Shown here in pieces: positions 775-45,038 of a DNA stretch of 51,793 bases (positions are counted from its first letter, which is position 1; each line of letters starts with the position of its first letter). Source of the stretch: Rhizaria sp. SCN 62-66 (taxonomy: Eukaryota). The DNA lies in NCBI GenBank assembly GCA_001724265.1, contig MEDY01000207.1, positions 1-51,793 on the forward strand, read 5' to 3'. A program made the position numbers and the translations under genes. The notes under the pieces are model-generated. The model was given only the letters and a program-made list of their open reading frames with translations. It was not told the DNA's origin and did no database searches.

Positions 775-1899
775 ATGGCTTCAACGGCTGTTAAAAAGGA
801 CTATGTGTCACACCACATGCCCGTGGCGCGCGTCACGGACACTATCCGCGCTATCAAGGGTGTTAGCAAACCGATGGAGCTGCCGTCGGACGTCTACACC
901 ACGACCGAGGCTCCCAAGGTCTCCCGCCAGATGACGACGTCGCGCAAGATTGCCGCCGGCATTATCTTCGCTTCCCACGTCTTCGGCCTTATCGGCGTGT
1001 ACCAGATGCTGACCATGCCCGGGCTCATGGGCCTCAAGTGCTTCATGGGCTGCATGCTCATCTACGTGCTGACGGGCACGACGGGCGTCACGGCCGGCGT
1101 CCACCGCCTCTGGGCGCACCGCTCCTACAAGGCCAAGTGGCCCGCTCGCCTCATCCTCGCCTTCTGCAACACGATCGCGAACCAGTCGTCGATCTACCAC
1201 TGGGCGATCGAGCACCGCGTGCACCACCGCCATGTCGACACCGACGCCGACCCGCACAACATCAACCGCGGCTTCTTCTTCGCCCACATGGGTTGGCTCT
1301 TCGCGCCCCGCACCGACGCCTTCGCCGCCGCGCGCAAGGAGATCGACGACTCTGACCTCCGCGCCGACCCCATCGTGATGTTCCAGGACCGCCACTACGC
1401 CTGGCTGTCGATCCTGCTCTGCTACGTCATGCCCACCATCCTCGGCGCGCCCTTCGTCGGCGGCTCCTACTGGAAGGCCTTCTGCATTTTTGCCATGTTC
1501 CGCTGGACGCTCACGCTGCACGTCACCTGGACTGTCAACTCCGTCGCCCACACCTTCGGCACGCGCCCCTACCGCCCCGAGGAGAAGGCCACCGAGTTCG
1601 CCCCCGTGTCTTTCTTCTCCGGCGGCGAGGGCTGGCACAACTACCACCACGCCTTCCCCTGGGACTACGCCGCCTCGGAGACCTCGGCCGACATCTTTTG
1701 GCGCTTCAACCTCGCGCGCTTCTGGATCGACTCGTTCGCCGCGCTCGGCTGGGTGCACGACCGCAAGGTGCAGCGCAACGTTTGGGGCGTGCCGCTCACC
1801 TGCCCCGGAGAGGCGCCCGTGCCGGCCGGCGCCCACGGCCACAGCCACGGCCACCACGGCGCGCACGCCGCGCCCGCCGTCGCCGAGGCCAAGCAGTAA
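775..1899 (+). CDS. Delta-9 (stearoyl-CoA type) fatty acid desaturase, intronless
   Basis: His boxes HRLWAH, HRVHH and HNYHH; DPHN..RGFFFAHMGW; VNSVAH; hydrophobic segments. First ATG at 775, TAA stop. No fused cytochrome b5 domain. Confidence 0.93.
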   Translation: MASTAVKKDYVSHHMPVARVTDTIRAIKGVSKPMELPSDVYTTTEAPKVSRQMTTSRKIAAGIIFASHVFGLIGVYQMLTMPGLMGLKCFMGCMLIYVLTGTTGVTAGVHRLWAHRSYKAKWPARLILAFCNTIANQSSIYHWAIEHRVHHRHVDTDADPHNINRGFFFAHMGWLFAPRTDAFAAARKEIDDSDLRADPIVMFQDRHYAWLSILLCYVMPTILGAPFVGGSYWKAFCIFAMFRWTLTLHVTWTVNSVAHTFGTRPYRPEEKATEFAPVSFFSGGEGWHNYHHAFPWDYAASETSADIFWRFNLARFWIDSFAALGWVHDRKVQRNVWGVPLTCPGEAPVPAGAHGHSHGHHGAHAAPAVAEAKQ

Positions 1900-2547
1900 G
1901 CAGTCAGTGCACGGTCGATGTCGCTGACGCTGTGTCTCTGCACTTCTCATGATTCATGCGCGTTGATACGTGGGTGATTTATGAGAGTTTTCATGTCAAC
2001 ATTGTCTTAATATGTCCTCTGTCCTCCCTCCTCTCCGTCTTTTGTGCGCGTGGTATCATCTGCAACTCCTGACTGTTTATGTCTGCAATTGTTTACTGAC
2101 GACGCCGCCGCGAAAGCTAACCTCAAGTAATACAACATTGTTCCATTGAACTCCAATGCTCCTCCTCTATCTCTATCTCACATCTCACGCGAAACACTAA
2201 TCAATAAACTACAATGCAATCCGTACATCATGTTGTACATCATGGGATGAAACACTTAAAGCAACAGTGCGGGCTTACTACGGGACACATGGGATAAATA
2301 AACAAACACGAGAGACGCAAAGCAAGTAATGTCGAGCATTGTATGAGATGAAAAAGAATCTAGAAGTAATAGTAGTAGCGGACGCGATGGTGTATTAGAT
2401 CATCAAGTGACAAGCAACACTTGTCTCTCATGCAAGAGCAAGAACTCAAATACCGACTTTATGACAACAGATAGAACGCACAGGCGTGTTGTTTTTCAGC
2501 ACGCCTGACGACGACTACCAAAGTAGCACGAGGCGATGTTTGGGCAC

Positions 2548-3357
2548 TTACGCGACAACCTTCTTGGTCTTGGAAGCCTTGAGGTAGTCGGAGAACTCCT
2601 GGTAGGGGGACATGGGGAGCTCGCCAACCTTCCAGAACTCGGGTGAGAGGAAGGTGTAAGTCTTGCGGAGAGCGTAGAACGCAGCGAAGACGAAGTTACC
2701 GATGGTGCGGGTACGGCCGTGCGAGCAGGTGTAGGCATCGGAGACACCGGCCATGATGAGGACGCGCTTGACGGTGTTGGCAGCGACGAGGCCGGTGCCG
2801 CGGGGGGCGGGGATGATGCGGCAGAGGACGGAGCCGCAGCGGCCGGTGACCTTGAAGGGGACGGTGTGGGGAGCACCGGCACGGGAGCCCCAGTAGCCAC
2901 GGCGGACGGGGATGACGTTGAGCTTAGCATCAACAATGGCACCACGGATGGAGCCGGCAGCCTCCTTAGCGCAACGAACGCCAAGGCCGACGTGGCCATT
3001 GCTGTCACCGACGAGCACCCAGGCCTTGAAGCGAGTCTGCTGACCAGCAGAAGAAGCACGCTGCACGGGCGAGAGGTGGATCATCTCATCCTTGAGCTTG
3101 TCGCCGAGGAAAAAGTCGACGATCTGGTACTCCTTGATGGGGAGAGCGAACAGGAAGATGTCGTCGAGAGACTTGATCTTCTTGTCCTTGACCAGACGGC
3201 CGAGCTTAGTGGTGGGAACCCACTCCTCCTTGCCATCGCGGGCACCACGGCCACGGCCGCCGGCACGGCGGGGGCCACGGCCGCGGCCGCGCTCGTCCTG
3301 GCCGCCGAAGCCGGCCTTGAAACCATCGCGTTGAGTAGGAGCAGCGTCAGAGCTCAT
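2548..3357 (-). CDS. RPS2: 40S ribosomal protein S2 (uS5)
   Basis: RG-rich N-terminus, [46 protein letters not shown]. Confidence 0.98.
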
Positions 3358-3363
3358 TGTCCG

Positions 3364-3632: not shown

Positions 3633-3684
3633 ATCAATATATCAACAACGCGACTCTATCATCCATTAAGGCGTCGTCCAAGTC

Positions 3685-3810
3685 TGCTCTCGGGGCCCAC
3701 ACCGCGGACAGAGTGCGGGGGCGACTTAAGTTAAAGTCCTTCGACCAGCCTGACCGTGCTCACAGTCGGTGCCAGTCAGTCTGTACGATCGATCGATCGA
3801 CCGACTTGGA
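3685..3810. promoter_or_regulatory. RPS2 / membrane-protein divergent promoter with ribosomal-protein-type motif
   Basis: GGCCCACACCGCGGACAG (3694-3711) nearly matches the reverse complement of 589-607; GGGGCGAC at 3718-3725. Confidence 0.5.
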
Positions 3811-3927: not shown

Positions 3928-6900
3928 ATGCAAGAATCGTATCATAACGCCTTCTTTTCGGACTCGAACGCTGTCGCGTTGAAGCCAGAGGACGCAAATT
4001 CTCTCGCCTCTTCGAACGACTTCTTTGATGTAGACGCTAAGATTGAGGTACGCAGCTCAAGTATACTTTGAAATACTACTTGCAACAGATTATATTTGGA
4101 GATTGCTCTTATATCTTACTATTACCTAGCGCAAATCCTGTCTGTAAATAAGCTCACCGCCAACGTCATTATGTGTATCACATCTCGCCCCTCATAACGC
4201 TGCACAGCCATGTGCTCTCGCTAAAGAGGTGTCTCTCTACCACCGCTATGTGCGTCTGCTGACGGGCATCTCCCCCGTCTGCACCACACTCGCACCTGAG
4301 GCCCGCCGTCCCCCTAGCGAGCTGTTCGCTCGCGCCCCTGACCGCGCTCGCAACAACGACACTAACACAGGTATCAACTCCAGTAGCGGCGCAGCAACGC
4401 CCGCTGTGTCGTCCTCCTTGTCAGTTTCATCTGACTCAACACGGCCCGTGTCCATGACGCATCGCCTGCTTGCGATGTCCCTTAACACGTGGCAAATCAT
4501 CGTCTTCATCCTCGCCGCCGTGGTCCACGCCGTGACGTCGACGCTCATCGCCTTCCACTCCCCCGCCGAGGTGCACCACCCGTTCTTCACGGCTCTAGGC
4601 GCCGCGCTCGACATCCCGCTGGTGTACTTCTCGCTGCACGCCGCGGCGCACTTCGTCCGCCTCTCGCTGCTCCCGCTTCTGACGTCGACGACGCTGTCGA
4701 GCGCCACGGTATACCCCGCCACGCTGCACGAGTGCCGCCGCGCGCTGTCGCGCCCCGCGCTGCTCGCGCTCGCGCTCACCGTCGCCGGCGCGCTTTCGGG
4801 CGCGCACCACGCGCTGGGGCTGTGTCTGCTGGGGGTGGCGGCCGTACGCGTGCCGCCGCTGCCGGGCTGGCTGCCCGCGGCGCCGACGCCCGCGATGGTG
4901 GCCAGCTACCGCGCGATGCTGATGCACCACGCGGGCCTCACATCCACGGGCGAGCTGCTCTCGGACACGTCGCACGCGTCGGCCTTCACGCGCTTCAACT
5001 ACCAGTACTCGTCGCTGGCGACGAACCTGGCCACCGCGCAGGCCGTCTCGGGGCACGAGGTGACGGGCCAGAGTGCGGGGGCGGGGGGACTCATGGGGTT
5101 TAGCATCGTCAACAAGGTTGTGCGCTACTTCACCACGACCAATGACGGCGGCGACGACTTCGACGACGAGGACGAGGCCGAGAGCCTCAGCGAAAAGGCT
5201 AGAGCCAAGGCCACCGCCGCGGCCGCGAGAAAGGCGGCGGCGATGACCAAGAGCGAGAAGGCCGCCGCCAAGGCCTTCATCCGCGCGCTGCACCGGTCGG
5301 AGAAGGGAGAACGCATGCTCACGGTCGCCATGCCGGGAAGTAAGGTCGCCAAGCGCAGCAACGCCGCCGACATGACCCTGTCGCTCAGCTCCAGCGGCAG
5401 AAAGGGCAAGGGTAAGGGCCGCCGGGCGAATTCTAAGGGCAAGGGTAAGGGCAATGGTGGTCGCAGCCGCGGTAAGGGCAAGGGCAAAGGCAAGGGCAAA
5501 GGCAAGGGTAAGGGCAAGGGCAAGGGCAACAAGGCCAAGGCTGCTGTCGATCTCTCTACGACTGCCGCTGCGACTGCCGCTGCGGGCTCTACTGAGCCCG
5601 TTGCCGAGGCCGACGCCGACACCGACTCCGTGATCGACGCGCTCGACGACGACGCTGACGTGGACACGGGCGCGGTGGACGGCTACGACGACAGCGCGGC
5701 CACGAGCACCCTCGCCGAGGCCGATGAGGCTGAGACTGAGACTGACCACGGCCACGACTCTGGTGAGGCTGAGCATGACCCCAGCTCTAGCCCGAGCTCC
5801 ATCACCAGCTTTACCACCAGCGCCGTGGCCGCCGCCAACGCGGTCGGCAGCCCCGCGAGCGCTGACGGCGCGGCAATGGACAGCACGGCAGCGGACGGCG
5901 CGGCGTTCGTGGTGGTCCCGGGCCCTGCGCCGCACATCGGCGGCGTGCCCACGGTGCCGCTCTGGTTGCTGCTGCTCAACATCCCCGCCGCGGCGCTCGT
6001 CGCCATCGCCACGCCGCTGGGCGTCGCAGTCTTTGCCGCCGTTATCGGGCTGCTCACCGCGCGCACGCGGTCGGTGTGGCGCGCGCTGTCATACGACCGG
6101 CTGTGCCCCATCACGTCGGTGCAACCACGCGCCCGCGACATCGACATCTGCCTTACGCACGTCGAGCGCAACTACGCCATGCCCGCATTCATGGTCTTCG
6201 TCATAGTTGCCGTGCAGTTCATCTTCCGCACGCTCGCATACATCACCGACAAGCCCCGTACGTCAGATATCACGCGCCATAATCATGATTTGCTGTATCA
6301 TCCCACTTCTTGCATCTTTTTTATCTAACTCGCGTCTCTGTATATTCCTTGTGTTTCCTTCGACTTATTAACTTCACAGACGACGCGACGGCGCCGAACC
6401 TACCTCAGATGTTGCTGACAGTGGCCATCACCCCCGTGATCCTCTCCTCGCTCGTCCTCTTCACGCTCGCGGCCCTCACGTCCAACATCGCGTACCTCAA
6501 CAAGGTCGTGCACCGCTACTACGTGCAGGCGCGCCTCTACAGCGCGGTCCGCCAGCAGGTCGCCAAGGCGCTTCTCTTAACCTCGGCAGCCGCCACCGCC
6601 AACGCGGCGCTGCCAGACAGCAGCAACAGCAACAGCGGCGTGATCGGCATCGCGATCGCGGTGGCGGGCGCGGTGGCCGCGGCGGCGACCGAGGCGGCTG
6701 TGGCGGGGCTGGAGGCGGCGGACGCGGCGGCGGAGCTCGAGGCCGACTCGGACGACGACTACGACTACGACTACTACACGAACGAGGGCGACGACGACGG
6801 CAATGAGGACGGGGACACCGTCACGAAGCGCAAGGGCGGCGACAAGAAGAAAGGCAAGAAGGGCAAGGACAAGAAGGAAAAGCACCACAGCCACGCTAAG

Positions 6901-7392
6901 GACAAGGACAAGACCAAGTCGGCTGCGGTGTCCTCCGTCGTCTCTGTCTTCAGCGACGACACGGCGACCGTGCTGGGTGACGCCGACGCCGACGCGGACG
7001 CCGCGCAGCCGCAGGAGACCAAGGCTGAGCGCAAGCGCCGCCGCGCCGCCGCCAAGCTGGACAAGCAGCGGCGCCGCGCGGCCGCCACGCTGCCACCCGA
7101 CCCGCCGCTGACGGTGCGCGAATATGAGTCGCACTGGCGCCTGCCCGTGGCGTCGTCGCTGGGCCTGGCCGTGACGGCCGTGGAGCCCGCGGCGTGGTCG
7201 TCATCCTGGCACGAGGGCTCGCGCGAGCACCAGGAGATGCTGCTGGGACAGCTCGTCGACTCGACCGAGCTGCTCGTCGCGTTCCACTTCATGGGTTGGG
7301 AGGTGCACTACTCCACCGCGTGGTCCTACATCGCGGCCGGCGCGGCCTTCTTCTCCAGTATGATGAAGGACAAGGCGCGCGAGCTCATCTAA
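3928..7392 (+). CDS. Multipass membrane protein (~1060 aa) with low-complexity loops; possible 7TM ion channel / gustatory-receptor-like. Exons 3928-4047, 4208-6257, 6380-7392
   Basis: GTACGC/CAG and GTACGT/CAG introns join the ORFs in frame. Multiple hydrophobic helices; C-terminal FHFMGWEVHYSTAWSYIAAGAAFF segment. Confidence 0.75.
5402..5529 (+). repeat. Coding (AAGGGY)n repeat giving a KG dipeptide tract
   Basis: ggtaagggcaagggcaaaggcaag... encodes GKGKGKGKGKGKGKGKGKG. Confidence 0.85.
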
Positions 7393-7677: not shown

Positions 7678-10600
7678 TTAGATGCCGAAGATATCTGCGA
7701 GACTGATCCAGTGATGGCTGAAGCGCTCGAGCAGCGCGTTGACGTGGCGGTGCACCTTGTAGAAGACCTGCTGCTCCTCAACCGTGAGCGTCGCGTCAAC
7801 GGGTCCCAGGGCGCTGGTGGCGACGGCGGCGGCGTTCTTGACGCGCCACTGCTGCTCGGCCTCGATCGCCGTCGCCGCGGCGTCGACGTCGAAGAGCCAC
7901 GCGTAGTACGACACCTGGTTGTACACTGCCGAGTCCGACAGGTCGCGCTTGACGGCCTCGAACGCGGTGTCGTGGCGCCCGCCGAGCGCGCGCAGAGCGA
8001 CCGACGGGTCGCGGGTCGCGTCGTGGCCCTCTGGCTTGAGCTGTGACGAAGCGTAGCGGCGCAGGAGCCCGTGGATGGCGACCGAGAGCGTGTTGCACAC
8101 GACGGTGGCCACAAGGTCAGGGCTCTCGTTCGCGCCGCCGCAGCCCGGCGTGGGGCAGCGGAGCCCGCAGATGCCGCCAGAAGTGGCCGCGCCGCCGGCG
8201 GAGACGGGCGCGACGAGGCGCTGCACCGCCGCCGGGTCCGTGTGCAGGCGCGCCATCAGGAGCTCCATGGTGAGGCCGCTGTCGCCGGTGGCCAGCAGCG
8301 ACTGGCTGGCGCCGCTGGACTTGGATTCGGCGGCCTCGGCCTCGACGAGCGACTTGAGGTGCGTGAGCTGGCTCGCCTGAACGAAGTTGTACACGCCGGG
8401 GTAGTGGTAGCTCACGTCGCACACAGGGCACACGATCTTGAGCGGCGTGCACTGCTTGTACTTGTCGTAGAGTGACGACGCCGAGTCCGCGTCCTCGTCG
8501 TCGTTGCCGAAGACGTCGGAGTAGCTGCTCGCGCCGCCAGACGCGGCGGCGCGCGCGCGACGGAAGCGGCTGGCGTCGAGGCCGAGCGCGAGTGCGAGCT
8601 GCTCGGGCGTGATATCCTCGATGACCTCGCAGAGACGCATGATCGGGGGAAGAATCTGCTGCTCCTTGTAGTACTTGATGTCGATGACGGGTGCCACGGA
8701 AGGGGTGCCTCTCGCCGGCTTCTTCGCCTTGGCGAGCGCGTCGGTGAACGTCGTCTTATGCATCGCACGCTCCGCGATCGAGCCGCTGCCCTCGGTGAAA
8801 ACGTATTCGATGACGTCGTTGACGCGCACAACCTTGCCCTCGTTGATCATGGCGAGCGCGACGTTGACGTGCGGCAGCGCCTTGATGTCGGCGTAGTCCT
8901 CCGGGGGCTTGCTCAGCGACTTTGTCATGACGAACTTGTCGAGCGGCACCTCGCCACTGTCAATCTGCTTGCTCAGCTCCTCCAAGAAGACGCGGATCGC
9001 GCTCACGAGGTCGTCGCGCGCGCGGTCGGCGAGGATCAGCCCGAGCACGTGGTCCGCAGCCTCGCGGGAGATGGGCGCCCAGTCACGGCGCACGGAGTCG
9101 AGACCCTTGGCCGTGCGCTCGAAGCGCAGCAGCTTCTCCTGCGGCGCATACGACTCGCGGTCCACGCGGTACACCGTGGAGCTAGACTGCGAGTCGCGCG
9201 CGTTGATCTTGGCCTCGTCGTCGAACATGTGCTTGTTGCGCTCGTCGATCAGCGTCTCCTCAGTGAGCTTCAGCGCGGCGTACTTCTTCTTCTTGAGCAG
9301 AAGCATCGACTTGAACATACCGTCGTCGCCGATGCGGAGGATCTTGTACGGCTTGTTGATCGCCTTGCGGATGTTGGCAGACTGGTCGCGAGCGAGCTTA
9401 AGCGAGCTGGTGAGCGTGTTGACCATGATCGAGTCGGTATCACCGTAGATGACGCTGCCGCGGAGCACCTCTGCGGTGCTCACAGCGGCCTCGAGTGCGC
9501 GACGGCCCTGCGTGGTGATCAGCGCGGCGATGGGCTGGCAGTAGAAGCGCGACGACGGGAAACCGAGGCAACCGTACATGGAGTTGGCAACGAGCTTGAG
9601 CGCGAGCTGACGGATATTGAGCGACGAGCGCTCGCCGGCGTTCTTCTCGAGCTTAAGCATGTCGCGCACGACCTTACGACGCTCGATAAGATGACCGACG
9701 ACGCCGGGCAAAATACCCGTGGGGATGGCGTTGTTCTCGGCGTCGACGGCGGGCGGCAGCAGCGCGTCCAGGTCCTCGCACCGCACCCAGTGCGTCATGG
9801 TGCTGAAGCAAAGGTTGTACTCGCGGATAATCGACGGGTACAGCGAGTTGAAATCGAGCACGGCGACCCAGGTGTCGTAGAAGCCCTTCTTAGGCTCCAG
9901 CACACGGCCACCAACGTACTTGGCCTTGCCGCGCTTGCGGCTCTTCTTGCCCGAGACGGAGCTGGCCGCGTTGTTGGCCGAGACGTCGTCGATGGGCTCG
10001 CCGTCATCGCCGAGCCCCAGGCGGCGGTCGAGCGCCTCTCGGGCCTCGCGCTCCTTGGCGGTAAGCTTCTCAGGCGGGATGAAACCGGCGCGCGTGAAGG
10101 CGTGCAGCAGCAGGTACTCAACGCGCTCGGCACGGGCGGAGCGCAGCGTGCGCGACCAGAGGTTGCCGCACGTCATGGTGAGCTGCGCGGTGAGCGGGAT
10201 GAGCTCGAGCTTGAACATGAGCGCGAGCTGCACGTGCGCATCCTGCACGTTCATCGTCGCCAGCTCCAGAATCGAGTCGCTGCGGCCGAACATGAGCGCC
10301 GTGGCCGAGGCCGCGACCTCGCGCAGGTTGAGCTGCAGCTGCTCCTGCGCGAGGAACGGCAGCGTGAACATCTTGCTGCCCATGAGGAACTCCTGAGCGC
10401 TCAGCTGCGTGTCGACAAGCAGGCGGCCCGCGCCCGCGCCGGCATCGACGGGCGCCACGTGCACGCTCTCGCGCGGCGGGTTCGTGCGCTTCAGGCGGCC
10501 AATCTTCGACCACTGCTGGCCGACCTTGAGCTGGCGCGCGCGCTGCAGCAGGAGGTCCATGCCCCAGCCGTGGAGGTCGTGCGAGACGATGACGTCGGGA

Positions 10601-12133
10601 TCGCTTGACTCGAGCTTGCGCAGCAAGTGCATCAGGAGGATGTTCTCCGCGTCGAACGCGAGCAGCGCGCCATGGCGGAAGGCGCTGGCCTTGGTCTTGA
10701 AGTCGTGTGGCCATACCATGCCCTTAGGCGGGCGGATAAATGTCACCGTCTCCTTAGCCGCCTCGTCGAGGGTCTTGTTGTCGATGTTGACGCTGTTGTG
10801 GAAGCGCAGCGTCGCAGCCACAATCTCGTGCGTGTTGCTGTTGGGCACCAGCAGCGTCTTGAGCGACAGCGACGCGACCGACAGGTTCGGGCTCGGCAAG
10901 TCGATGCTCACGCTGCCCGCGGCGCCGGAGCTGCTGCCGGCAACAGCGTTGTTGTTGGCGTCGAGCACGGGCGCCTTAAAGAGCGTGACGTCGAACTGCG
11001 ACTCGACCTCGAACTCGAGCTCGCACCACGACACGTGGTTCTTGCGCTGCACGGCAACGGCGTTCTTGATGCTCAGCCACGAGGGACCCTTGAGGCCCTG
11101 GGACATGAGCACGAGCTCGGCCTTGCTGGCGCGGGTGCCGAACACGTGGCTGAACGTCTTGCCCTAAGATTGGAGAACAAGAAGAAAAAAAGATAACAAA
11201 TTGAGATAAGTATTCGCAGTGAGCGTACGCAATAATGACGAAATATGAACGGAGATGTGAGTAAAATAGAACTTATTAGTCCTCCATAGTACGTACCTGC
11301 ATCTCGCGGGGCAGCGGCTCGTACTCGGTCGAATAGAGCACGTGCAGGTACTCCGCGCTAGCGGGGATGATGTTCACGCCATCGAGCAGCGACGCGCGCT
11401 CAGGCGGGATCTCTCCTGGCGCAATGCTGGCAATGACGCCGTCCTCCTCGTCGTCGTCGTCGTCGCTGGGAACTGTCGCCTGCTTGCTCTCGTCGCCGTC
11501 CGCAGCGGCGGCCTTGGCCGCGGCCTTGGCGGCCTTGGCCTTGGCCTTGGCGCTGGCCTTGGCCTTGGCCGCGGCGGCGAGCGTCTCGTCCTCGGACATG
11601 AGCATCTTGCGCCCGAAGCAGTACTTCATCGTCACTGGCTTGGCCTCAATCTCGCTGACGCCGCGGCTCTGCATGAGAGTCTTGACTTCCATGAACACGT
11701 CGCCCGACGTCACCGCGTGTGAGGTCGTGGACTTGGGGTCAGTGGCGCTCGCGAGCTTGAGCCTGCGGGGCAGGATGTGAAGAGAGCGCTTGACGTTCTT
11801 GATCACGACGCAGCAGCTCGCGGTCTTGACCGTCGCCATGTCGACCTTATAGGGCGCGGCGTCCTTGCGCTGGCCCGCGGCGCGAGCAGCGGCGACGAGC
11901 TCGAGGTACGTGTCGCGGGTCATGGCTCGGCCAAACATATACACGTGGCTCGCAGCGGGGTTGACGCCGACGCTAGAGCCGAAGCCGTCGCGCAGCGAGC
12001 GCGCCGTCTCGGTCGACATGGGCTGTGCGTCACCCTCGTACATGTCGTACCAGAAAACGATCAAGTCGTTCAGGTCCGACGCCGCGAGGGCGCCGACAAG
12101 GGAGGCGTCCACAACCGCAGAGTCGGAGGACAT
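7678..12133 (-). CDS. POLA1: DNA polymerase alpha catalytic subunit. Exons 12133-11297, 11163-7678
   Basis: Family B motifs DFNSLYPSII, KLVANSMYGCLG, YGDTDS, LLLKKKKYAAL; Pol alpha-type GKTFSHVFGT and LKGPSWL. Phase-0 GTACGT...TAG intron. Confidence 0.96.
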
Positions 12134-12796
12134 CGCGCAGAAGAGAGCTTGGTGAAGGACTGATGCAGGGGGGTCGGGGGCGCGAGGCGCTGGGATCGTT
12201 GGTGGGCGGAGGAAAGGGACTGTTGGGAAAGGGTAGAAATCACATGTACAGATTGTTTCTTAAGAAATAATTACAAAATACAATATACAATTCACTAAAA
12301 TATCCCGATCTATTGCTATAAATCAATTTAAACGAGTGTGGACGGCGTACATACTGCTTGAGCACTCCCACAACAAGAGGCGCCAAAAGGCTTGAGGCGC
12401 CAACCGAAGTTGAGGTTCAGACTCTAGGAGACCGTGAGCAGAGGTTGGTCTGTCGGCATGGTGCGGTGTAGTGCGGAACAACCTAGTGCGTGTTACCAAT
12501 GAACACAAGCATTGCGTTGGTTATCAATAGAATGTTTTGTGTGTTGTCTTTCCTTGTCTTATTTTGTTGCGCCTCAGCCCTGTGTCCTCCTTTCTCTCTA
12601 GACCACGAAAGTGAGAGGACTGGGACGTTCGTGGTGGCGCAACTTCAGACCCGATATGTTAGGTTTACCAGACACAACACCATCGTATGAGCATGCGCGT
12701 TTCTCGAACTACATATACTCTAAAATAACAATATTAAACTGCAACTCACCAAACCGCTGTCTTGTTGCTGTATTGTCCCGTCTTCAGAAAGCAACA

Positions 12797-33221: not shown

Positions 33222-36200
33222 TCAGATGTTCACCGCGTCGGGGTCCTGCATCGCCACCGCGAGCTGCGCCGCCAGCACTTCGTTGACCCCCTCCAGTCCG
33301 TACAGCGCCTCGAATCCGCACTCGGCGTCCGCGCTCTTGCGGCTGCCGCCCGCGGCCGCGCCCGCAGCCACGCTAGACGCGTCCTTGCCCTCGTCCGCGC
33401 CCGCGGCGGCGGTGGAGGAGGCCGCGGCCGCGAGGGCGGCGAGGCGGGCATGCACAGGCACCGCCGCCGCGCCCGCGAGCGTGATGTTGGTGAGCGCGCG
33501 CAGCAGCACCGTGGCGCCCGAGACGGACAGCGCCGCGCTGCCGCCGTTGCCGCTCGCGCCGGAGCCGGAGCCGTTGCTGCTGCCAGCGCGCGCGAGCACG
33601 CTGCTGACCACTGAAGTCAGCACCGGCACAGCAGCACTGGCAGCGTTGGCGTGTGCGTGTGCGCGAGCGTGTGCGTTGCGCGTGCTGCCAGCGGGCTTGG
33701 CGGCGGCGACGGCAAGCGCGGCGGTGGCCTCCGCGGTGGCGGCAAGCACGACAAGCTGCCCCGCGGTCCGCAGCAGGTACGCCTGCACGGGCGGGGTCAC
33801 CACGACGGAGACCGCCGCCGCCGAGGCCGCCGCGGCGTCGGGGCCCGCGGCCACCGAGGCCGAAGTCCACAGCGACTGCGGCGGCGGCAGCGCCACGTGC
33901 GACAGTAGCGACACCACCAGGCGCAGCGCGGCGGCCGCAGATCGGGCCATGGCAGCCGCGGTCGTCGCCGCGGACACCGACGAAGCGCCCGCACCGGCGT
34001 TGGCCACGACGGTCTGAGCATTGCTGCTGCTGTTAGTGATGAGGGCGTGCAGCGCGGTGGCGATGCTCTCGATGCGGGCCCACATCGTGGTGAGCGCGAC
34101 GACGGGCTGCAGCCACAGCAGCGGGCCAGCGCTGTTGGCGTGCGCGGCGGCGACGCCGATGACCGCGACGAGGCGTGCGCGCGCCGCGGCGAACGCGGCC
34201 CACTTGTCGCCTACGGCCGAGGCGCAGCCGCTCGCGCTCGCGTGCTTGATGTGCGCACCGGGAGCGCACCACGCGCCGAGCCCACTGACGACGACGCCGG
34301 CGTTGCCCGCACTCGCACTCGTTGAACTGGCATTGCCCGATCCAAACCCGAGCCCAAAGCCGTTACTGCTGCTGCCGGCGGCGGCGGCGCTGTCGGTGTG
34401 GGTGTGGAGCGAGCGCGTGACCGTGGCGGGCGAGAGCAGTGTCGCGCCGACCTCGCGGGCATACTCGCCGGCGGCGTCAACCGCGGCGGCAACCGTGGCG
34501 GCAACGTACCCGCGCGCGCGGTCCTCGAGTCCACCCCTGAGCGCGAGCGAGACGGCCGCGGCGGGGCGCCCGGCGCGGTGGTGGCCCGCGGCCGCCGCCG
34601 CCGCGACCGCGCGCGCTTCGTCGACTAGTCCGTACTTGGCGCAGAGCGCGAGGAGCTTGTTCGTGGTGGCCGCGGAGTCGGGCGCGGTGCGCGCGACGAG
34701 GACTGCGATGCGCGCGCGGCCCTGCGAGAGGCAGTGCTCGTAGTAAGTCACCGCGAGCGGCCAGAGCGGGGTCCCCGCGTAGGTGTCCGCGAAGGCGACC
34801 AAGTACCACTCGCGCAGGTCGAGCGGCGCGGCGGGGTCGCAAGCCGTCTCGAGCGCGAGGCGGGCCAGCGCGGGCGCGCCCGTGGCAGCGACGGCGGCGC
34901 TGGCGAGCGCGACCGTGGTCGGCAGCGTCGTCTGCGCCGTGTGGGCCAGCAGGTCCGCCAGGTGCGCGCTCAGGAAGGGCAGCCGCACGGCGCCGTGCAC
35001 AGCCTGCAGCGACAGTAGCGCGTCGGTCGACAGGATCGCGAACAGCGCGCAGTCGAACACGCTTGCGGCAGAGGCGTTGGGATTCTTGGCGCTGGCGCTG
35101 GCGTTGGGGGAGATGGTGACGTTCTTGCTGTGGCAAGCCTTGTCGGCGAGCCATGTGACGGCATCGCGGCTCGCCCAGGGCTCCTTGAACGCCAGCGTGG
35201 CGCCCAGTAGCTCGGTCCAGGACTCAGAGGCCGCGGCAAGCGCGGGAGCCTCGCCCGCGAGCAGCTCGAGCAACGGCGCCGTCTCAGGCAGCGCCGCGAA
35301 GACCGCCGACGCGCGCGCGGAGGCGACGTCGCGCTGCCAGAGCAGAAACTGCTGCTGCAGCGCGTCCACGCTCGCGCTCCCACTGACGCCAGACGCGGAG
35401 GAGTAGCCGTTGCTGTTCTCGCCGTCCTCGCCGTCATCGTCGTCGTCGTTGTCGACGTTGGCGTTGGCGTTGAGTGAGGGCAGGGACACGTTGAGCGAGC
35501 TGGCGAGTTCCGCGATGGCGGCGTTGCCGGCGAAGGTGGGGCACGTAAGCACGAGCGTGACGAGCAGCTCGCGCGCGCCGGGCGCCTGCGTCTCGAGCAC
35601 GTCGTTGGCGGCCAGCAGGCGCACGGCATCGACCACGCGCCCGCATGCCAGGAGCCGGCCCACGGCGGCCCAGTACGCCGCGCTGTGTACGCCGCTGCTG
35701 CCGCCGTTGCTGCTGCCTGTAGCAGACGCGATAAAGGTGTTCAGGTACGCGGGGGGCTCGGCGGTGCGCTGGAGCCAGTCCAGGTACTGGGCCGTGATGT
35801 TGGCGTGAGGGTCCAGGTGCGCGATCTCGAACAGGTGCCAGAGCGCCTTGCCCGTCTCCAGCACGCGCAGCGCCGCCAGATCGGGGTACCGCGCGCTGTG
35901 CGTGGCTTGGCCGTTGCTGCTGTTGTTGTTGTGGTTGGCGAGGGCGGCGGCGTGGAGGAAGGCCTCGAGCTCCGCGCGGTAGGCCTTGCTCTGGTGTAAG
36001 AGGTATGCGCGGCGGGTCGCGTCGTCGGTCAGAGTCGGCGCGGTGGCCTGCAGGGCTGCGAAGATGCCGTGCCAGCTCGTCAGCAGCGAACGCAGCAACA
36101 GTGGGTCGTCCGAGTGGCGGTGGAACTGCACCTGCGACGGGGCCGACGCGCTGGCGGCAGCGGCGACGGCGAAGGTGGACCCGGGGCCGAAGGACGCGAC

Positions 36201-36236
36201 GGCCGACGGATGGCCCTTGCTGAGCGGGGCGGACAT
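33222..36236 (-). CDS. NUP85: Nuclear pore Y-complex protein Nup85
   Basis: LWHLFEIAHLD...YLDWLQ; YW..V.RLL..GR...AVRLL; W.ELL.A.L.F..P; AHLADLL; LREWYL..FA; LWPLAVTYYEHC...GR. Confidence 0.82.
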   Translation of the reverse strand: MSAPLSKGHPSAVASFGPGSTFAVAAAASASAPSQVQFHRHSDDPLLLRSLLTSWHGIFAALQATAPTLTDDATRRAYLLHQSKAYRAELEAFLHAAALANHNNNSSNGQATHSARYPDLAALRVLETGKALWHLFEIAHLDPHANITAQYLDWLQRTAEPPAYLNTFIASATGSSNGGSSGVHSAAYWAAVGRLLACGRVVDAVRLLAANDVLETQAPGARELLVTLVLTCPTFAGNAAIAELASSLNVSLPSLNANANVDNDDDDDGEDGENSNGYSSASGVSGSASVDALQQQFLLWQRDVASARASAVFAALPETAPLLELLAGEAPALAAASESWTELLGATLAFKEPWASRDAVTWLADKACHSKNVTISPNASASAKNPNASAASVFDCALFAILSTDALLSLQAVHGAVRLPFLSAHLADLLAHTAQTTLPTTVALASAAVAATGAPALARLALETACDPAAPLDLREWYLVAFADTYAGTPLWPLAVTYYEHCLSQGRARIAVLVARTAPDSAATTNKLLALCAKYGLVDEARAVAAAAAAGHHRAGRPAAAVSLALRGGLEDRARGYVAATVAAAVDAAGEYAREVGATLLSPATVTRSLHTHTDSAAAAGSSSNGFGLGFGSGNASSTSASAGNAGVVVSGLGAWCAPGAHIKHASASGCASAVGDKWAAFAAARARLVAVIGVAAAHANSAGPLLWLQPVVALTTMWARIESIATALHALITNSSSNAQTVVANAGAGASSVSAATTAAAMARSAAAALRLVVSLLSHVALPPPQSLWTSASVAAGPDAAAASAAAVSVVVTPPVQAYLLRTAGQLVVLAATAEATAALAVAAAKPAGSTRNAHARAHAHANAASAAVPVLTSVVSSVLARAGSSNGSGSGASGNGGSAALSVSGATVLLRALTNITLAGAAAVPVHARLAALAAAASSTAAAGADEGKDASSVAAGAAAGGSRKSADAECGFEALYGLEGVNEVLAAQLAVAMQDPDAVNI

Positions 36237-36956: not shown

Positions 36957-38667
36957 ATGTCCAAGGATCTCGCAAAGTCCACCCTGGACCACCTAAACTG
37001 TACGTCATGCATTAACAACACTTATTTATGGATATAATAATAGCGACTCTACCGTGCTATTTTGGTTTTGTTGTCATTGACGTATGTCTTTATGGTAGAC
37101 TACCGCGTTTCAGCCGCTCACTCTCGTTTCACAATGCTTGCTCTGTGCTCCCTGTCTCCCTCTGCATATGCACTCACACCCGCTTCTCTTACGTATTTCT
37201 TTAACATAGTCTTTGACAACATGATGTCACGGACGTCCTTCGCCAAGCGTCGCACCCTGGAGGAGCCCAACATCAACGCCAAGGTACGCACACAGCGCTT
37301 TTGCACAACGCAAACCTTGCGACAGTTGCTTTCGTTCCCCTGTCTCTGTCCGCTGCTCTTGAATCGTACCCAACCATAACATCACTGGGACATTGCGGAT
37401 ATAACGCACACTTGCACTGTTTACGATATATGCTTTCTTCTGTTCCGCATTGATACTCAATCTCTAGCTTTTGTGACTCACACCTTAATATTCACCAATC
37501 GCAATTGCCTTTCTCTGTTTCGCCCCGCGCGCACAGTACCTGTTCAAGCGCGACGGCTGCGCCCCCGGCGTGAACAAGCAGGACCCCAACGCGGACCCCA
37601 AGGCGCTTGCGGCCGCCAAGAAGGCCAAGAAGGCGGCCAAGGAGGCCCACGCGCGCGGCGCCAAGCGTGCCCTCCAGGCCGACGACGTCGACGCCGACGC
37701 CTCCGAGCCCGAGGCCGAAGAGGAGGAGGAAAGCGACGATGACTCGAGCGAGGCCGTGTCCGCGCAGCCGAAGCGCCAGTCCGAGGCTGAGCTCAAGTTC
37801 CAGGCGAACCAGAGCCGTCTCGTGCCGATCAACTACGCGACGCTGGACGAGCTGAAGCAGCGCATCCGCGACAAGGTCGAGGCGTCGCGGGTCACACGCG
37901 AGGCCGGCGAGGGCAAGCGCGCGTTGATCAAGGCCAAGCGTGCGGAGAAGGCGGCGCGCGAGAAGGCCAAGGCGAAGAAGAAGGCCGGCGAGAACGCGGG
38001 CACGGTGCAGCAGCAGCAGAAGGCGCGCCAGGGCGACGACAAGAATGGCAAGGCCGACGCTGACGCCGCGTCCAACGGCGCCAACGTCGCGCACAAGAGC
38101 AAGCGGCCGCGGCCGACGCTGGCGCCGGACGCGGCGGCGCTCAAGACGGACGCGAGCAAGATCGGCCTCGAGCTGCAGTTCGGCGCCGTCGCCGTGCCGC
38201 AGAAGGTCAAGGACCTGGAGAAGGCGCTGTCCACCACGGACTCGGGCGCTCCCGTCCGCGGGTCCGGCAGCGCGGGCGCGGCGCTGGCCAAGATCCGCGA
38301 GGAGAAGGCGGCTCTGGCGCGGCTGCGCGAGAGCGGCAAGGTGGCCGAGGCCGAGGCGCTGGAGCAGAAGAGCAAGATGGAGAAGCTGCTGATGCTGGCG
38401 CAGGGCGGCAAGGTGGTCGACTCGGAGAAGCGGCTGCGCAAGGAGAAGAAGGATGGCAAGAGCAAGAAGGAGGAGAGCGAGAAGAAGTGGAAGGCGCAGA
38501 AGAAGGGCGAGGAGACGCAGCGCAACAAGGCGGCGGCGACGCGCGAGAGCAACGTCAAGGCGCGCCTCGAGAAGCGCATGCAGCAGAAGCAGGGCACGTA
38601 CAAGAAGCCCAAGAAGCCCGTCAAGAAGGACGGCAAGGGCGGCAAGGGCAAGGGCAGCAAGAAGTAA
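36957..38667 (+). CDS. SURF6: SURF6/RRP14 nucleolar ribosome biogenesis protein. Exons 36957-36999, 37210-37283, 37537-38667
   Basis: Spliced N-terminus LDHLNFFDNMMS resembles Rrp14-N. Lys-rich C-terminus with AQGGKVVDSEKRLRK..K.KK.ES.KKW...RESNVKAR (SURF6 domain). Confidence 0.82.
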
Positions 38668-39183: not shown

Positions 39184-39949
39184 ATGTCCTCCTCCGAGCC
39201 CCAGAGCTCTTCCCTCGCCGCGCCCTCTGGCGCCGACGCCGGGTCCGACCGCATCTCGTACGACGGCTACGCCCCGCAGTCGTACATGGACAGGCACGTG
39301 GTGCGCCACCTGCGCCACATGCGCGACAAGGAGTACATCCGCATCGCCTGGCGCAACTGCAAGGAGTACTCCGCCGTCTACCAGGCCTGCACTGAGAGTA
39401 CGTTTACATGACTGCAATGCACACACGAAGTGCCATTCTGATTCAGCTTGATTGGCATGCACTATAGCTGTTGGAAGTGCCGGCTTCGTCGAAGGATGCT
39501 GCGCTTTCGCAGATTGTCTCTGTTTGCTAACGGACTATTTACCCATTATTCTTATTGGACGTTATTTGTTTTGCATTATAGAGCACCCCTACCTGGCTCC
39601 GTTTAAGTGCCGCGACTCTCTCAACGAGATGAAGGTCTGCATCAACCGTCAGTACGTCACAGCCACATAGTGTCCTCCCATCAAGCTGATATTGTACTAT
39701 ATAATATACATTGGTACTGCCTGCTTTTTGTGACGTTTATGTTATTTTATCATGTTGCTATGTGCACTAACCTTCCTCTTTCTTTTGTTTTGTGTTGTTC
39801 CGTGTCTGTCTCTGTGCCCTCTCAGGATGGTGCGCCAGCGCGAGCAGGCGGTCGAGATCGACCGTGTCCCCACCGTCGACCCATCGCAGCTCATTGACAT
39901 TGACACCGCGTCGAAGCAGCTTGGCAGCGATGTCACCAAGGGACAGTGA
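39184..39949 (+). CDS. Twin CX9C mitochondrial intermembrane protein (Cmc1-like). Exons 39184-39397, 39582-39651, 39826-39949
   Basis: Spliced sequence C-KEYSAVYQA-C-TEKHPYLAPFK-C-RDSLNEMKV-C; two GTACGT...AG introns keep the frame. Confidence 0.82.
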
Positions 39950-41352: not shown

Positions 41353-44300
41353 ATGACTGCGCAGACGTCGTTTTTGACACGCCGTATTATGACAGGACGG
41401 TTCTCTCACTTTTCGCTGCTCTTGGTTGCGGTCATTGCCGCGGCGGCTCTGAGTAGCACCTACGTCGCCGCCGCCGGTTTCGTCCAAGCCTCTCTCTCTG
41501 CCGCATACGACTTTACCGATGGCTACACCGCCTCTGGTGGCGTTGAAGTTCCGCTTAGCGTTTCTACCGCGAACCAGATCGCCAACGGTCTGGGCGAGTT
41601 GCTGTTCAGTGACTCGAACAAAGCCACGACCTGGAGTCAAGATGTACGTCTCTCTCTCACGCCATGGACTTGCATTGAAATTAAATTATTATTTCATGCG
41701 GTAAAATATCAATTACATTTGTTTTCACTTTTATTATTTTGATTTTGTTTGTACACATTTAGGGCCCGTACTACGGTGTTTCATTCGATGGCACCTCTGC
41801 ATCGTCGCTCACCAGCGCCGCCACTATCACCGAGGCGATTGATTCCCTCAACCCTTCGCCCTATGACCCGTCAATTGTGGTCCACGCTATTATCACCCCT
41901 GCGTCCACAACCGCTATGTACGCGCCGCTGCTTGCCATCGGCGAGTCCTTCTCGGCCGAGGAGAGCGGCTCCGGCACCGAGGACTGCAGCAAGGTCACCC
42001 TCGTTCTCGTCCAGAACAACCACCTGCTCCGTCTTCTGGGAAACACGCCCAACTCCACGCGCTGTGTAGAACTGTACAGCACCGCTTTGCCCACCACGCG
42101 CCCGCTCGCGCCCGTGAACGTGGCGCTCAACGTGCGTGAGACCGAACCCGGCGTACTGCGCGCGACCATCGCCGTCGACGGACTGCTCACCAGCGCCTCG
42201 CCCGTCGACTCGGAGCTCACGCTCGCGGCCGACACGCTCAAGCAGAAGCTCACCGTTGCACCCGCGGCCGCCGGCGCTGTGTCGCAGTGGCGTGGCACGG
42301 TGCACCACATCGCCGCATACTTGGGCCGCTCTATCGGCAACACTGACTTCAAGGCCATCACCAACGCTGTGCTGCCCGTGCTGCCGCCGCGCCTCGCCCC
42401 GCGCGTGGCCGCCAAGGCCGACGGCAGCGTCACCGCGATGGCCGGCGGCCTGCTGGTCGCCGAGCACAGCGGTCTTGGTTTCACCGTTGGCAGCGACATC
42501 ATCAGCGCCGGCGACGGCGCCATCTCCGAGGTGACCGTGAGCAGTGTCAGCAGCGAGAGCTTCTGGGCCTGCTACTCGCTCACGGTCACCCCCACTGGGT
42601 CCGACGCCGCGGTCACAATCTCTGAGTCGTCCCAGCTCCCCGTGACTGTGAGCAGCTCGAGCGTGCTTACGGTCACCAGCACCGGCGACTACAAGACTTG
42701 CATCACTCCGGCCCCCGTCGCGACGCACATCAACGTCGTCGCGCGTACGGTCATCCTCCCCTCAAACGCCGCCGCCTCGGCGCCGCAGGTGACCGCAAAC
42801 GAGACGCGCTACTCGTCGTGGTGGCCGGTCGCGCAGTCAGTCGCCGTCTCCGTGTCGGACGCGTCGCCGCCCACCGCGGTGGACCTGACCACAAAGCTCA
42901 CCGCGCGCACGCGCCGCTGGCTGGAGCCCTTCACGGGCGCTAACAACGACGCCTCGCTGCAGATGATCTCGGCCAAGATCACCGCACTGCCCAGCTCTTC
43001 GGCGTTTGCGCTGTACAGCTGGGACGCACAGGCCGCCGCTCTGGGCCCCGCCAGCGAGGCCGCGGCCGCAAAGGTCCTCAACGAGTCCTACTGGCAGCGC
43101 ATCACCGCCGTGCCTTTCACTGTCGCGGCCACCAAGCTGCCCGGCGAGACCGCGTCTTCGTTCAAGGTCGCCGTCAAGCACACGTACACCACGGCAAGCA
43201 CCGTCGCGCCTGCCGCCCCGCTAAGCTCCGCCGAGCTTGAGGCCAGCGCGTTCACATTTACTGTGACGAGCGAGAATGGCCGCGAGTCCGAGCCCACGAC
43301 GCGCTCGCTGAGTGCTGAGACTTGGGTGACCGTGCGCGCCAACGCCCCCGGCTCCAGCCCCGCGAGCGTGGTGTCGGTGCAGCCGCTGACAACGACCGTG
43401 ATCACCGCACCCTTTGCTGACGCGGCCGCCGAGGCCAACGTGGCGTCCGCGCTGGGTCACAGTCAGCCCGCGGAGTCTACAACTCCGGACTACATCAGCC
43501 TCGTGATCACCTCGCTGCCCACGGTTGGCACGCTCATGGTCCCCGTCACCCACACCACCAGCATCAACAGCGCTGACAATAGCGATGTCAGCGAGTACAT
43601 TGACCACAGCGGCGTCGACGATAACGCGCAGAGGCGCGCTAAGACAACTGCGGACGTGCTTGCAACGCTGTCCCAGACACATCCGCACCTCAAGACGGCG
43701 TCGTTCAGCACCAAGCTGGCCGCTCTGGTCCGTCTCACCGGCCGCTCTCCGCGCGCGGCCAACCGCCTCCTCCGCGGCGGCGACGACGAGGACGAGTTTG
43801 CCACGGCTGCCACGCCGGTCGCGATGCGCAACCTGACCGAGGAGGACCTGCCGTTCGCGACTGCGGGGCCCACGGTCACCTACCGCGCGCCCGACGGCGT
43901 GCAGAGCCGCCTCAACGCACCAGTTTCGGACTCGTTCACGTACTTCGCATACGACCGCCGCTACGGCGTCGCCGCGTCGGAGGCCACCACAACCGCGGTC
44001 ACGCTTGCTGTGATCACGAACGCACCCAAGCTGCGCCCGCAGACCACACCGAACGTCTCCAACACCGGCGCCGTGACCGACGCTGAGGTCAAGCTGGCGT
44101 ACAACGACGAGGAGAGCGCGCTTCGGATCAAGGTGGGCAGCTCGCTGTCGCTGAACATGACGTTCAGCGACTCCGACGAGGGCGACATGAGCGCGAGCAC
44201 CGTCGACGTTGTCATCACGTGCAACTGCGGCGGCCTGCGTTTCAGCCTCAACGGCACGCAGGCGGAAACAAGCGCGATCGTGCTCGAGTCGACCGAGCTC

Positions 44301-45038
44301 GTTGGCACGCTCTCGTTCTCGGCCCGCATGGGCAACCTGCAGTCGGCGCTGGACCTTGTGACCATGACTGCCGTGGGCGCAACGGGCAGCGGGCCGATCC
44401 GCGTGACGGCGACTGCAACCGAGACGAGCGAGACGGGCAAGGGCACCGCCTCGACGGCCTTCTACGTCAACGCCTGGGACATCAAGTACGGCGGCGCGAC
44501 CGGGTTCAGCGGGATCATCTTCACGATTGTGATGTTCGTCGCCGTGCCCGTCGTTGGGCTGGTGCTGCTTTGGGTTCTGCTCAAGTGCTGCGGCCGCCGC
44601 ATCAAGCGCGCGCTCTGCGGTCCCAGCGCCAAGGAGCAGGCCGAGCTGGACGCCAAGAACAAGCAGGAGGCCGAGGCCGTTAAGTCCAGCGGGCTGGCCA
44701 ACTGCCCTAGCCCCACGTCGTCGTTCGACGGCATGGGCAGCTTCGGCGCCCCCAGCAGCCCGTCGTCGGGCACGAACAACTTCTACATCATCACCACGGC
44801 CTCCCCCGAGGCGACGCTCAGCGCGGCCGACGTGCAGGCTATGCTCTCCCAGCTCCCGGCGTCGCCGAACCAGACCTTTACGCACCACGCGATGGCGGTT
44901 ACCATGCCGGCCAACTTGAACAGGAAGGTGCCTCCGCTGCCCCATGGTGCGGTTAAGCCCGGCGTGGGGGCGCCGATGCCGCCGCCCTACAAGCTCCGCG
45001 ACGACGACGTCAGCGGCGCACAGCCGGCGTCGCAGTGA
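41353..45038 (+). CDS. Type I cell-surface protein (~1190 aa): signal peptide, beta-rich ectodomain, single TM, PPPY tail. Exons 41353-41643, 41763-45038
   Basis: N-terminal hydrophobic signal FSLLLVAVIAAAALS; phase-0 GTACGT intron; TM IIFTIVMFVAVPVVGLVLLWVLL followed by KCCGRR; C-terminal PMPPPY. Confidence 0.85.

What the first reader, a model, noticed from the sequence alone, without database searches (positions are those of the whole stretch)
775..45038. No gene in the window terminates with UAG
Seen: the 14 complete genes end in TAA (7: desaturase, RPS2, membrane protein, POLA1, GluRS, PCIF1, SURF6) or TGA (7: methyltransferase, cyclin, WDR75, Pro-rich, NUP85, CX9C, surface protein). The only in-frame TAG in roughly 12,000 reconstructed codons is the internal one at 16220. 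Known: nuclear codes that uncouple UAG (sense) from UAA (stop) exist but are rare (a rhizarian, Iotanema, some ciliates). Inference: this genome may use such a variant code, with UAG a very rare sense codon. The sample is small, so the evidence is suggestive only.
Basis: partly seen in the sequence, partly recalled or inferred. Interest (0 to 1): 0.8.

Follow-up and report, generated by a model that had tools for sequence, protein, structure and literature searches.

The report
Lone in-frame TAG; no TAG stops
In this 52-kb piece of an uncultured wastewater protist none of 14 genes ends in TAG and one otherwise intact enzyme gene has a TAG in its middle; this is most likely an ordinary inactivating mutation plus small-sample chance, and only possibly a changed genetic code.

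Summary
Both observations hold. I rebuilt 14 complete genes: 7 end in TAA, 7 in TGA and 0 in TAG. The only in-frame TAG in about 11,500 modelled codons is at 16220-16222.

That TAG lies in exon 2 of a three-exon gene for a class I SAM methyltransferase with a signal peptide and a C-terminal KDEL. Homologues are single proteins, and their similarity runs straight across the TAG, with invariant prolines 8 and 11 residues downstream. The TAG is not an assembly error: it is present in an identical JGI contig and in a contig of a slightly different strain from another study.

The code-change reading is not established, and I think it the less likely one.
- Zero of 14 has a chance of about 0.03-0.1 for ordinary TAG use.
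- With this GC3-rich codon usage, 76% of one-step nonsense mutations give TAG.
- Known UAG-only codes carry internal UAG in 78-91% of genes; here it is 1 of 14.
- Strain differences downstream of the TAG are mostly non-synonymous (2 synonymous, 5 non-synonymous), against 16:1 elsewhere.

No tRNA gene, eRF1 gene or further genome sequence could be reached. My estimates are: nonsense allele under the standard code about 0.6, UAG decoded genome-wide about 0.15, leaky read-through about 0.1.

The parts
16220..16222 (+). In-frame TAG, codon 252 of the methyltransferase CDS. It is followed by C (TAG CAC TTG).
   Evidence: It aligns to one variable column in 10 homologues (E x3, D x3, T x2, M, A), between invariant D305/D307 and invariant P316/P319.
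15299..15967 (+). Methyltransferase exon 1: signal peptide (MKLSFFLLCALAAL...) and the SAM-binding part.
   Evidence: Pfam Methyltransf_25/11/12. Aligns to P0005 residues 53-186.
15968..16135 (+). Intron 1, 168 nt, GTACGC...CAG, 43% GC, open in frame.
   Evidence: It appears as a 56-column insertion against all 10 homologues. GC.
16136..16296 (+). Methyltransferase exon 2, which holds the TAG.
   Evidence: HVYNPRSVVAEVTRILAPGGAFFVLDSD-TAG-HLADAVHPSPPSLQYGQQLHAVRA aligns to P0005 residues 187-241.
16297..16472 (+). Intron 2, 176 nt, GTTCGT...CAG, 39% GC.
   Evidence: Splicing joins AG+G into one codon and gives one frame open to KDEL.
16473..17712 (+). Methyltransferase exon 3: conserved C-terminal half of the fold, then an acidic tail ending HKVKDEL and TGA.
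   Evidence: Aligns to P0005 residues 286-393 and P0007 residues 216-283. GC3 is 0.90 in the conserved part.
775..1899 (+). Fatty-acid desaturase, ends TAA.
2548..3357 (-). Ribosomal protein uS5 (RPS2), ends TAA.
4454..7392 (+). Membrane protein, 2 exons (intron 6258-6379). The start is uncertain. Ends TAA.
7678..12133 (-). DNA polymerase alpha catalytic subunit, 2 exons (intron 11164-11296), ends TAA.
12794..14977 (+). Glutamyl-tRNA synthetase, ends TAA.
17982..22102 (-). PCIF1-like gene of 5 exons (22102-21140, 20800-19998, 19855-19789, 19669-18959, 18479-17982), 1,013 aa, ends TAA.
   Evidence: only one combination of splice sites gives a single open frame.
22562..25775 (+). It has no Pfam match.
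26235..29933 (+). WDR75, ends TGA.
31145..32665 (-). Proline-rich protein, ends TGA.
33222..36236 (-). NUP85, ends TGA.
37570..38667 (+). SURF6, ends TAA.
39184..39411 (+). Small CX9C protein, ends TGA.
41877..45038 (+). Surface or transmembrane protein, ends TGA.

Best explanation
The organism uses the standard code. The TAG at 16220 is a premature stop: a single-base nonsense mutation, fixed in all sampled populations, in a dispensable ER-lumen SAM methyltransferase gene. It is recent enough that the rest of the gene is still intact. That none of the 14 genes ends in TAG is a small-sample effect in a lineage that favours TAA and TGA.

Shown: the TAG, its place inside conserved coding sequence, its presence in several assemblies, and the terminator tally. 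Inferred: that translation ends at the TAG.
For: 1. With the window's codon usage, 1,875 of 2,477 one-step paths from sense to stop (76%) give TAG. A TAG interruption is therefore what a random nonsense mutation would produce here.
2. There is one internal TAG in 11,525 codons and in 1 of 14 genes. The long conserved genes have none.
3. Among the strain differences that one search listed (40 rows shown, 32 more not shown), classed 16 as synonymous and 1 as non-synonymous across GluRS, PCIF1, 'cyclin', WDR75 and methyltransferase exon 1. Downstream of the TAG it classed 2 as synonymous and 5 as non-synonymous. Fisher p = 0.003, or 0.008 if the two changes in one codon count once.
4. P(0 of 14) is 0.04-0.23 for TAG shares of 0.20-0.10, which is not rare.
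5. The related contig L002 also shows TAA x6, TGA x2 and TAG x0 in 8 ORF-genes, with no internal TAG. This fits a clade that simply uses TAG little.
Against: - The gene is otherwise flawless. It has a signal peptide and KDEL at its two ends, three exons in register, canonical splice sites, and no second stop or frameshift in 438 codons after the TAG.
- GC3 is still 0.90 in the conserved part downstream, against 0.39-0.43 GC in the introns.
- No allele without the TAG was found. L001, the X4 contig and the 7 contigs of P0002 all carry it, and no longer ORF appeared in the 183-583 aa range.
- All 5 non-synonymous differences lie in low-complexity linker or tail, which may evolve fast anyway.
- The TAG has C at +4, whereas 13 of the 14 real stops have a purine there.
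- Zero of 14 TAG terminators is still somewhat unexpected against a composition baseline of 0.23.
Confidence: 0.6

Rival explanations
1. UAG is not a terminator in this organism. It is decoded by a tRNA(CUA) as a very rare, perhaps inefficient, sense codon, while UAA and UGA stay stops. This is the reader's reading: a UAG-only code change at an early or low-usage stage.
For: - 0 of 14 terminators are TAG.
- The one in-frame TAG sits in a gene that is otherwise complete from signal peptide to KDEL. Similarity continues across it, with invariant P316 and P319 downstream.
- It falls at a variable loop column in a gene of lower codon bias (GC3 0.81), which is where a rare codon would be tolerated.
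- It is fixed in every assembly seen.
- Its frequency (0.09 per 1,000) is of the order of the rarest sense codons here, ATA at 0.17 and CGA at 0.35.
- C at +4 differs from the purine at +4 in 13 of the 14 real stops.
Against: - There is a single site, and the residue cannot be inferred because the column holds E, D, T, M and A.
- Described UAG-only codes have internal UAG in 78-91% of genes (PMC11687900, section 10 read) or 384 in 71 genes (PMC5304391, passages read).
- About 16% of codons here are one step from TAG (1,875 paths over 11,525 codons), and G-ending codons are favoured. A freely readable TAG should therefore have accumulated.
- No tRNA gene is present in the window, L001 or L002.
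- Strain differences downstream look relaxed.
Confidence: 0.15
2. The code is standard, but this TAG is leaky. Near-cognate read-through in a weak context (TAG-C) yields some full-length enzyme, so the gene is kept partly functional.
For: - The +4 base is C, against a purine at 13 of 14 true stops. That stop-C is the weakest eukaryotic termination context is recalled knowledge, from no call.
- The site is a variable loop column that could accept any residue.
- The downstream frame and GC3 are kept.
Against: - The downstream hexamer CAC-TTG does not match the tobamovirus-type CAR-YYA read-through motif (motif recalled, from no call).
- The 60, 90 and 120 nt after the TAG in the spliced mRNA fold no better than shuffles (z = -0.01, -0.06, +0.73).
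- Read-through in the middle of a catalytic fold, as opposed to a C-terminal extension, has no precedent that I know of.
Confidence: 0.1
3. The TAG is removed or changed in the RNA, either by an 18-nt in-frame mini-intron (GT at 16205 to AG at 16222) or by RNA editing.
For: A GT...AG pair of exactly 18 nt ends on the TAG.
Against: - The 10 introns modelled here are 119-479 nt long. Their donors are GTACGC x3, GTACGT x4, GTTCGT, GTATGA and GTCCGT. GTCCTC does not fit.
- Removing the 18 nt would delete VLDSD, including the invariant D305 and D307.
- No RNA contig covers the site.
Confidence: 0.03
4. The TAG is an assembly or sequencing error.
For: None found.
Against: The same TAG is in L001, in the X4 contig from another study and strain, and in 7 contigs from three sources.
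Confidence: 0.01

Closest known systems
Rhizarian exLh (Sainouroidea): UAG = Leu, UAA/UGA = stop (PMC5304391, passages read)
   Same: The terminators seen there are only UAA (56) and UGA (15). UAG appears inside conserved genes.
   Different: That organism has 384 in-frame UAG in 71 genes, at conserved Leu positions. Here there is 1 in 14 genes, at a variable column. No taxonomic link was shown.
Iotanema spirale (Fornicata): UAG = Gln (PMC5304391, passages read)
   Same: UAG is uncoupled from UAA.
   Different: It has many internal UAG codons with a consistent Gln signal. It is an anaerobic flagellate, whereas this is a GC-rich organism with 93% GC3 in its most biased genes.
Phyllopharyngean ciliates: UAG = Leu or Gln (PMC11687900, abstract and section 10 read)
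   Same: A UAG-only reassignment with UAA/UGA kept. UAG terminator use was already low (10.5-16.2%) in relatives that keep the standard code.
   Different: 78-91% of their genes hold an internal UAG, and suppressor tRNA genes were found. Neither holds here.
Unitary pseudogene or fixed nonsense allele under the standard code (general knowledge)
   Same: A single premature stop inside a conserved domain, and a raised non-synonymous share downstream.
   Different: There is no second lesion, no intact allele was found, and codon bias is retained.
Programmed UAG read-through of the tobamovirus/MuLV type (recalled knowledge)
   Same: A UAG followed by C, with an open frame beyond it.
   Different: There is no CAR-YYA motif and no downstream structure. 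The site is mid-domain and does not precede an extension.

Membership tests
Nuclear code with UAG sense and UAA/UGA stop | UAG never or almost never ends genes | tested here: inconclusive
   0 of 14 complete genes end in TAG. Chance is 0.04-0.23 for TAG shares of 0.20-0.10.
Nuclear code with UAG sense and UAA/UGA stop | Many in-frame UAG codons in conserved genes | tested here: not met
   1 in 11,525 codons, in 1 of 14 genes. There are none in POLA1, GluRS, uS5, WDR75 or NUP85.
Nuclear code with UAG sense and UAA/UGA stop | In-frame UAG aligns to one consistent amino acid | tested here: inconclusive
   There is a single site. The column holds E x3, D x3, T x2, M and A in 10 homologues.
Nuclear code with UAG sense and UAA/UGA stop | A tRNA gene with anticodon CUA | not testable with these tools
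   0 tRNA genes in the window, L001 and L002. No Rfam match. No genome is held.
Nuclear code with UAG sense and UAA/UGA stop | Altered eRF1 or direct peptide evidence | not testable with these tools
   The eRF1 gene is not in the window, and no proteome data are available.
Nonsense allele / young pseudogene | Premature stop inside a domain that the fold needs | tested here: met
   The TAG matches P0005 residue 217. The methyltransferase fold of P0005 spans residues 57-358 in structure matches, and similarity continues to residue 393.
Nonsense allele / young pseudogene | Relaxed constraint downstream of the stop | tested here: inconclusive
   2 synonymous and 5 non-synonymous downstream, against 16 and 1 elsewhere. 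All 5 lie in low-complexity sequence, and 32 difference rows were not shown.
Nonsense allele / young pseudogene | Further disabling lesions, or an intact allele in the population | tested here: not met
   There is no other stop or frameshift. Every assembly seen carries the TAG.
Programmed stop-codon read-through | Stimulating 3' context or RNA structure | tested here: not met
   The context is TAG CAC TTG. Folds of 60-120 nt downstream give z between -0.06 and +0.73.

The most novel reading that the evidence does not exclude
This uncultured, GC-rich wastewater protist no longer uses UAG as a terminator and reads it, inefficiently, as a sense codon. That would be a UAG-only reassignment caught at a very low-usage stage, in a lineage outside the ciliates, Sainouroidea and Fornicata. 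It may be shared with the related organism of L002, which also shows 0 of 8 TAG terminators.
Probability: 0.15. Interest if true: 0.75.

Novelty: already known. Interest (0 to 1): 0.3.

Why it matters
If UAG were decoded here, this would be an early stage of stop-codon capture in a free-living eukaryote. The described UAG-only codes that I read about (PMC5304391, PMC11687900) are all in widespread use. It would also offer a candidate kind of host for the giant viruses that earlier notes of this scan report as reading TAG as glutamine. If it is a nonsense allele, as I think more likely, the finding is ordinary. The useful lesson is that in genomes with extreme GC3, TAG is by far the commonest nonsense codon, so a lone in-frame TAG is weak evidence for recoding.

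Tried and rejected
- Whole genome: none is held.
- Earlier notes: none for this genome or for look-alike stretches. A word search on in-frame TAG, sense codon and UAG found nothing.
- RNA evidence: the RNA contigs of X5 and X6 leave 16002-16668 almost uncovered (mean depth 0.15 and 0.77). No splice joint of this gene is among the 15 joints shown (704 more were not shown). X5 also covers intron and intergenic positions, so it may hold DNA. Expression, splicing and mRNA decay therefore remain untested.
- More DNA of the organism:
  - The one metagenome scan returned only L001, which lies wholly inside the window, and L002.
  - The POLA1 scans of genome contigs and viral contigs gave no locus.
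  - The record behind L002 could not be extended.
- A repeated organism-specific motif to fish for other contigs: only alanine-codon low-complexity repeats turned up.
- Hidden genes in the gaps: 72 ORFs of at least 60 aa from the regions without gene models gave no Pfam match above cut-off. The T-rich 45.0-48.9 kb stretch has many TAG-ended ORFs but no codon-position signal.
- An ORF at the left edge ending in TAG (2-136, + strand) is the antisense frame of eS26 (codon score -46 against +16).
- Taxonomy:
  - uS5 matches solved ribosome chains at 292-361 bits; I did not look up their species.
  - The best labelled GluRS relatives are Diphylleia rotans, at 50-51% identity.
  - Neither result places the organism.
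- The mini-intron, the read-through structure and the assembly-error readings are treated under the rival explanations.
Full report
**What the window is.** It is a 51.8-kb contig of 62% GC, and the public runs that hold it are bioreactor and wastewater metagenomes. It is eukaryotic and compact. Exons are GC-rich, with GC3 of 0.76-0.96 per gene and about 93% in the most biased genes. Introns and spacers are AT-rich, at 46% GC overall. No whole genome is held. ARAGORN finds no tRNA gene and Rfam finds nothing. Earlier notes of the scan do not cover this genome.

**Gene models and terminators.** I rebuilt the genes from ORFs, codon-position GC, Pfam and splice-site searches. There are 14 complete genes, plus eS26 running off the left edge and RRN3 running off the right edge. 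The ORFs at 22102-19838 and the PCIF1 ORFs join into one five-exon gene of 1,013 aa, and only one splice combination gives a single open frame. Seven genes end in TAA, seven in TGA and none in TAG. Across 11,525 modelled codons the only internal stop triplet is the TAG at 16220-16222. ORFs of at least 60 aa in the regions without models gave no Pfam match above cut-off (72 ORFs).

**The gene with the TAG.** It has three exons: 15299-15967, 16136-16296 and 16473-17712. It encodes an N-terminal signal peptide, a class I SAM methyltransferase domain (Pfam Methyltransf_11/25) and a C-terminal HKVKDEL.

An exhaustive HMMER search of 1.84 billion representatives found 12 proteins at E of 0.001 or better, including the window's own ORF. 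The five best foreign hits (P0003-P0007) are single proteins of 363-460 aa. P0005 and P0007 end in REEL and KDEL.
- BLASTP to P0005 covers exon 1 and exon 2 as one alignment, with intron 1 as a gap.
- Exon 3 aligns to later parts of P0005 and P0007.
- In an 11-sequence alignment the TAG occupies exactly one column. That column holds E x3, D x3, T x2, M and A. It lies between invariant D305/D307 and invariant P316/P319.
- Structure matches of P0005 place the methyltransferase fold at residues 57-358. The TAG corresponds to residue 217.

The TAG therefore interrupts conserved coding sequence in the middle of the fold. A protein ending there would lack the rest of the domain and the KDEL.

**Not an artefact.** L001, a 2,431-nt contig from another JGI sample, is identical to the window and carries the TAG. 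Run X4, from a different study, has a 1,588-nt contig over 15081-16669 that includes both introns. Its 6 substitutions and 1 deletion are all listed and none touches the TAG. The 307-aa ORF that stops at this TAG is on record from 7 contigs in three sources. No longer version turned up among proteins of 183-583 aa.

**Is 0 of 14 more than chance?** TAG makes up 22.8% of stop triplets in the window's non-coding DNA. At a TAG share of 0.20-0.25 the chance of 0 of 14 is 0.044-0.018. At 0.10-0.15 it is 0.23-0.10. Ciliates that keep the standard code use TAG for 10.5-16.2% of genes (PMC11687900, section 10 read). The distantly related contig L002 has 52.5% GC, and its methyltransferase region is 34% identical to the window's. 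Its 8 ORF-genes end in TAA x6, TGA x2 and TAG x0, and its long ORFs hold no internal TAG. This could mean a clade that uses TAG little, or a shared peculiarity. Eight genes cannot tell these apart.

**Evidence against a code change.**
- *Frequency.* In the known UAG-only codes the codon is common. It occurs 384 times in 71 genes of the rhizarian exLh (PMC5304391, passages read), and 78-91% of genes in the ciliates have an internal UAG (PMC11687900, section 10 read). Here it is 1 gene of 14.
- *Mutation supply.* 1,875 of 2,477 one-step sense-to-stop paths (76%) lead to TAG, because GAG, AAG, CAG, TCG and TAC are abundant codons. So TAG is the expected nonsense codon. If it were freely readable, it should have accumulated.
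- *Strain differences.* Among the differences that one search listed, coding changes outside the region after the TAG are 16 synonymous to 1 non-synonymous. Downstream of the TAG they are 2 to 5. Fisher p is 0.003, or 0.008 counting codons. Three caveats apply: all five lie in low-complexity linker or tail, the numbers are small, and 32 rows were not displayed.

**Evidence that keeps it alive.**
- The gene has no second lesion in 438 downstream codons.
- It keeps GC3 of 0.90 in its conserved downstream part.
- It carries the TAG in every assembly seen.
- The TAG sits at a column that tolerates many residues.
- It has C at +4, whereas 13 of the 14 true stops have a purine there.
- TAG at 0.09 per 1,000 is not far below the rarest sense codons, ATA at 0.17 and CGA at 0.35.

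**Other readings.**
- *Leaky read-through.* It is possible, but there is no known stimulating context (motif recalled, not from a call). No structure is present either: z is -0.01, -0.06 and +0.73 for 60, 90 and 120 nt.
- *An 18-nt GT...AG segment ending on the TAG.* It fits none of the 10 introns, which are 119-479 nt long with donors of the type GTAYGY. Removing it would also delete two invariant aspartates.

**Verdict.** The interpretation cannot be settled from 52 kb, and the balance favours an ordinary fixed nonsense allele plus a small-sample absence of TAG terminators (about 0.6). A UAG-decoding code comes next (about 0.15), then leaky read-through (about 0.1). The test is cheap once the organism's other contigs are in hand. 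One search shows that closer relatives exist (GluRS at 73% and 65% identity), and their DNA I could not fetch.

Noticed in passing
window 15299-17712; P0003-P0007, P0014: The methyltransferase belongs to a very small eukaryote-type family with a signal peptide and a KDEL/REEL end, so it is presumably active in the ER lumen. Only 12 proteins at E of 0.001 or better, and 7 at 1e-10 or better, were found among 1.84 billion representatives. Its substrate is unknown, and its nearest structural neighbours are bacterial UbiE/Methyltransf_11 enzymes.
   Followed up: partly
window 17982-22102 (-): The PCIF1-like gene (NPPF motif) is a five-exon gene of 1,013 aa with a long alanine-rich N-terminal extension. 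The ORFs at 19838-22114 are its first exons and not separate genes.
   Followed up: yes
window 45039-48933: A 3.9-kb stretch shows no codon-position signal and no Pfam match. It is T-rich on the + strand (AT skew -0.23 at 46-48 kb) and has many TAG-ended ORFs. It lies between the surface-protein gene and RRN3, and what it is remains unknown.
   Followed up: partly
window, 10 introns: The 5' splice sites are uniform: GTACGC x3, GTACGT x4, GTTCGT, GTATGA and GTCCGT. Introns are 119-479 nt long; the two in the methyltransferase gene are 39% and 43% GC.
   Followed up: yes
L002 1-20426: The related 214-kb metagenome contig (52.5% GC, genes apparently without introns) also has no TAG terminator among 8 ORF-genes (TAA x6, TGA x2). 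Its long ORFs hold no internal TAG.
   Followed up: partly
P0016, P0135, P0017 (GluRS relatives): GluRS has closer relatives than any other protein searched: 73% identity (a cluster of 3, one member on a 20-kb JGI contig) and 65% (an NCBI record). The best labelled relatives are two Diphylleia rotans transcripts at 50-51%.
   Followed up: no
window 1-171 (-): The left edge holds the first 57 codons of ribosomal protein eS26 ([10 protein letters not shown]...), running off the window.
   Followed up: yes
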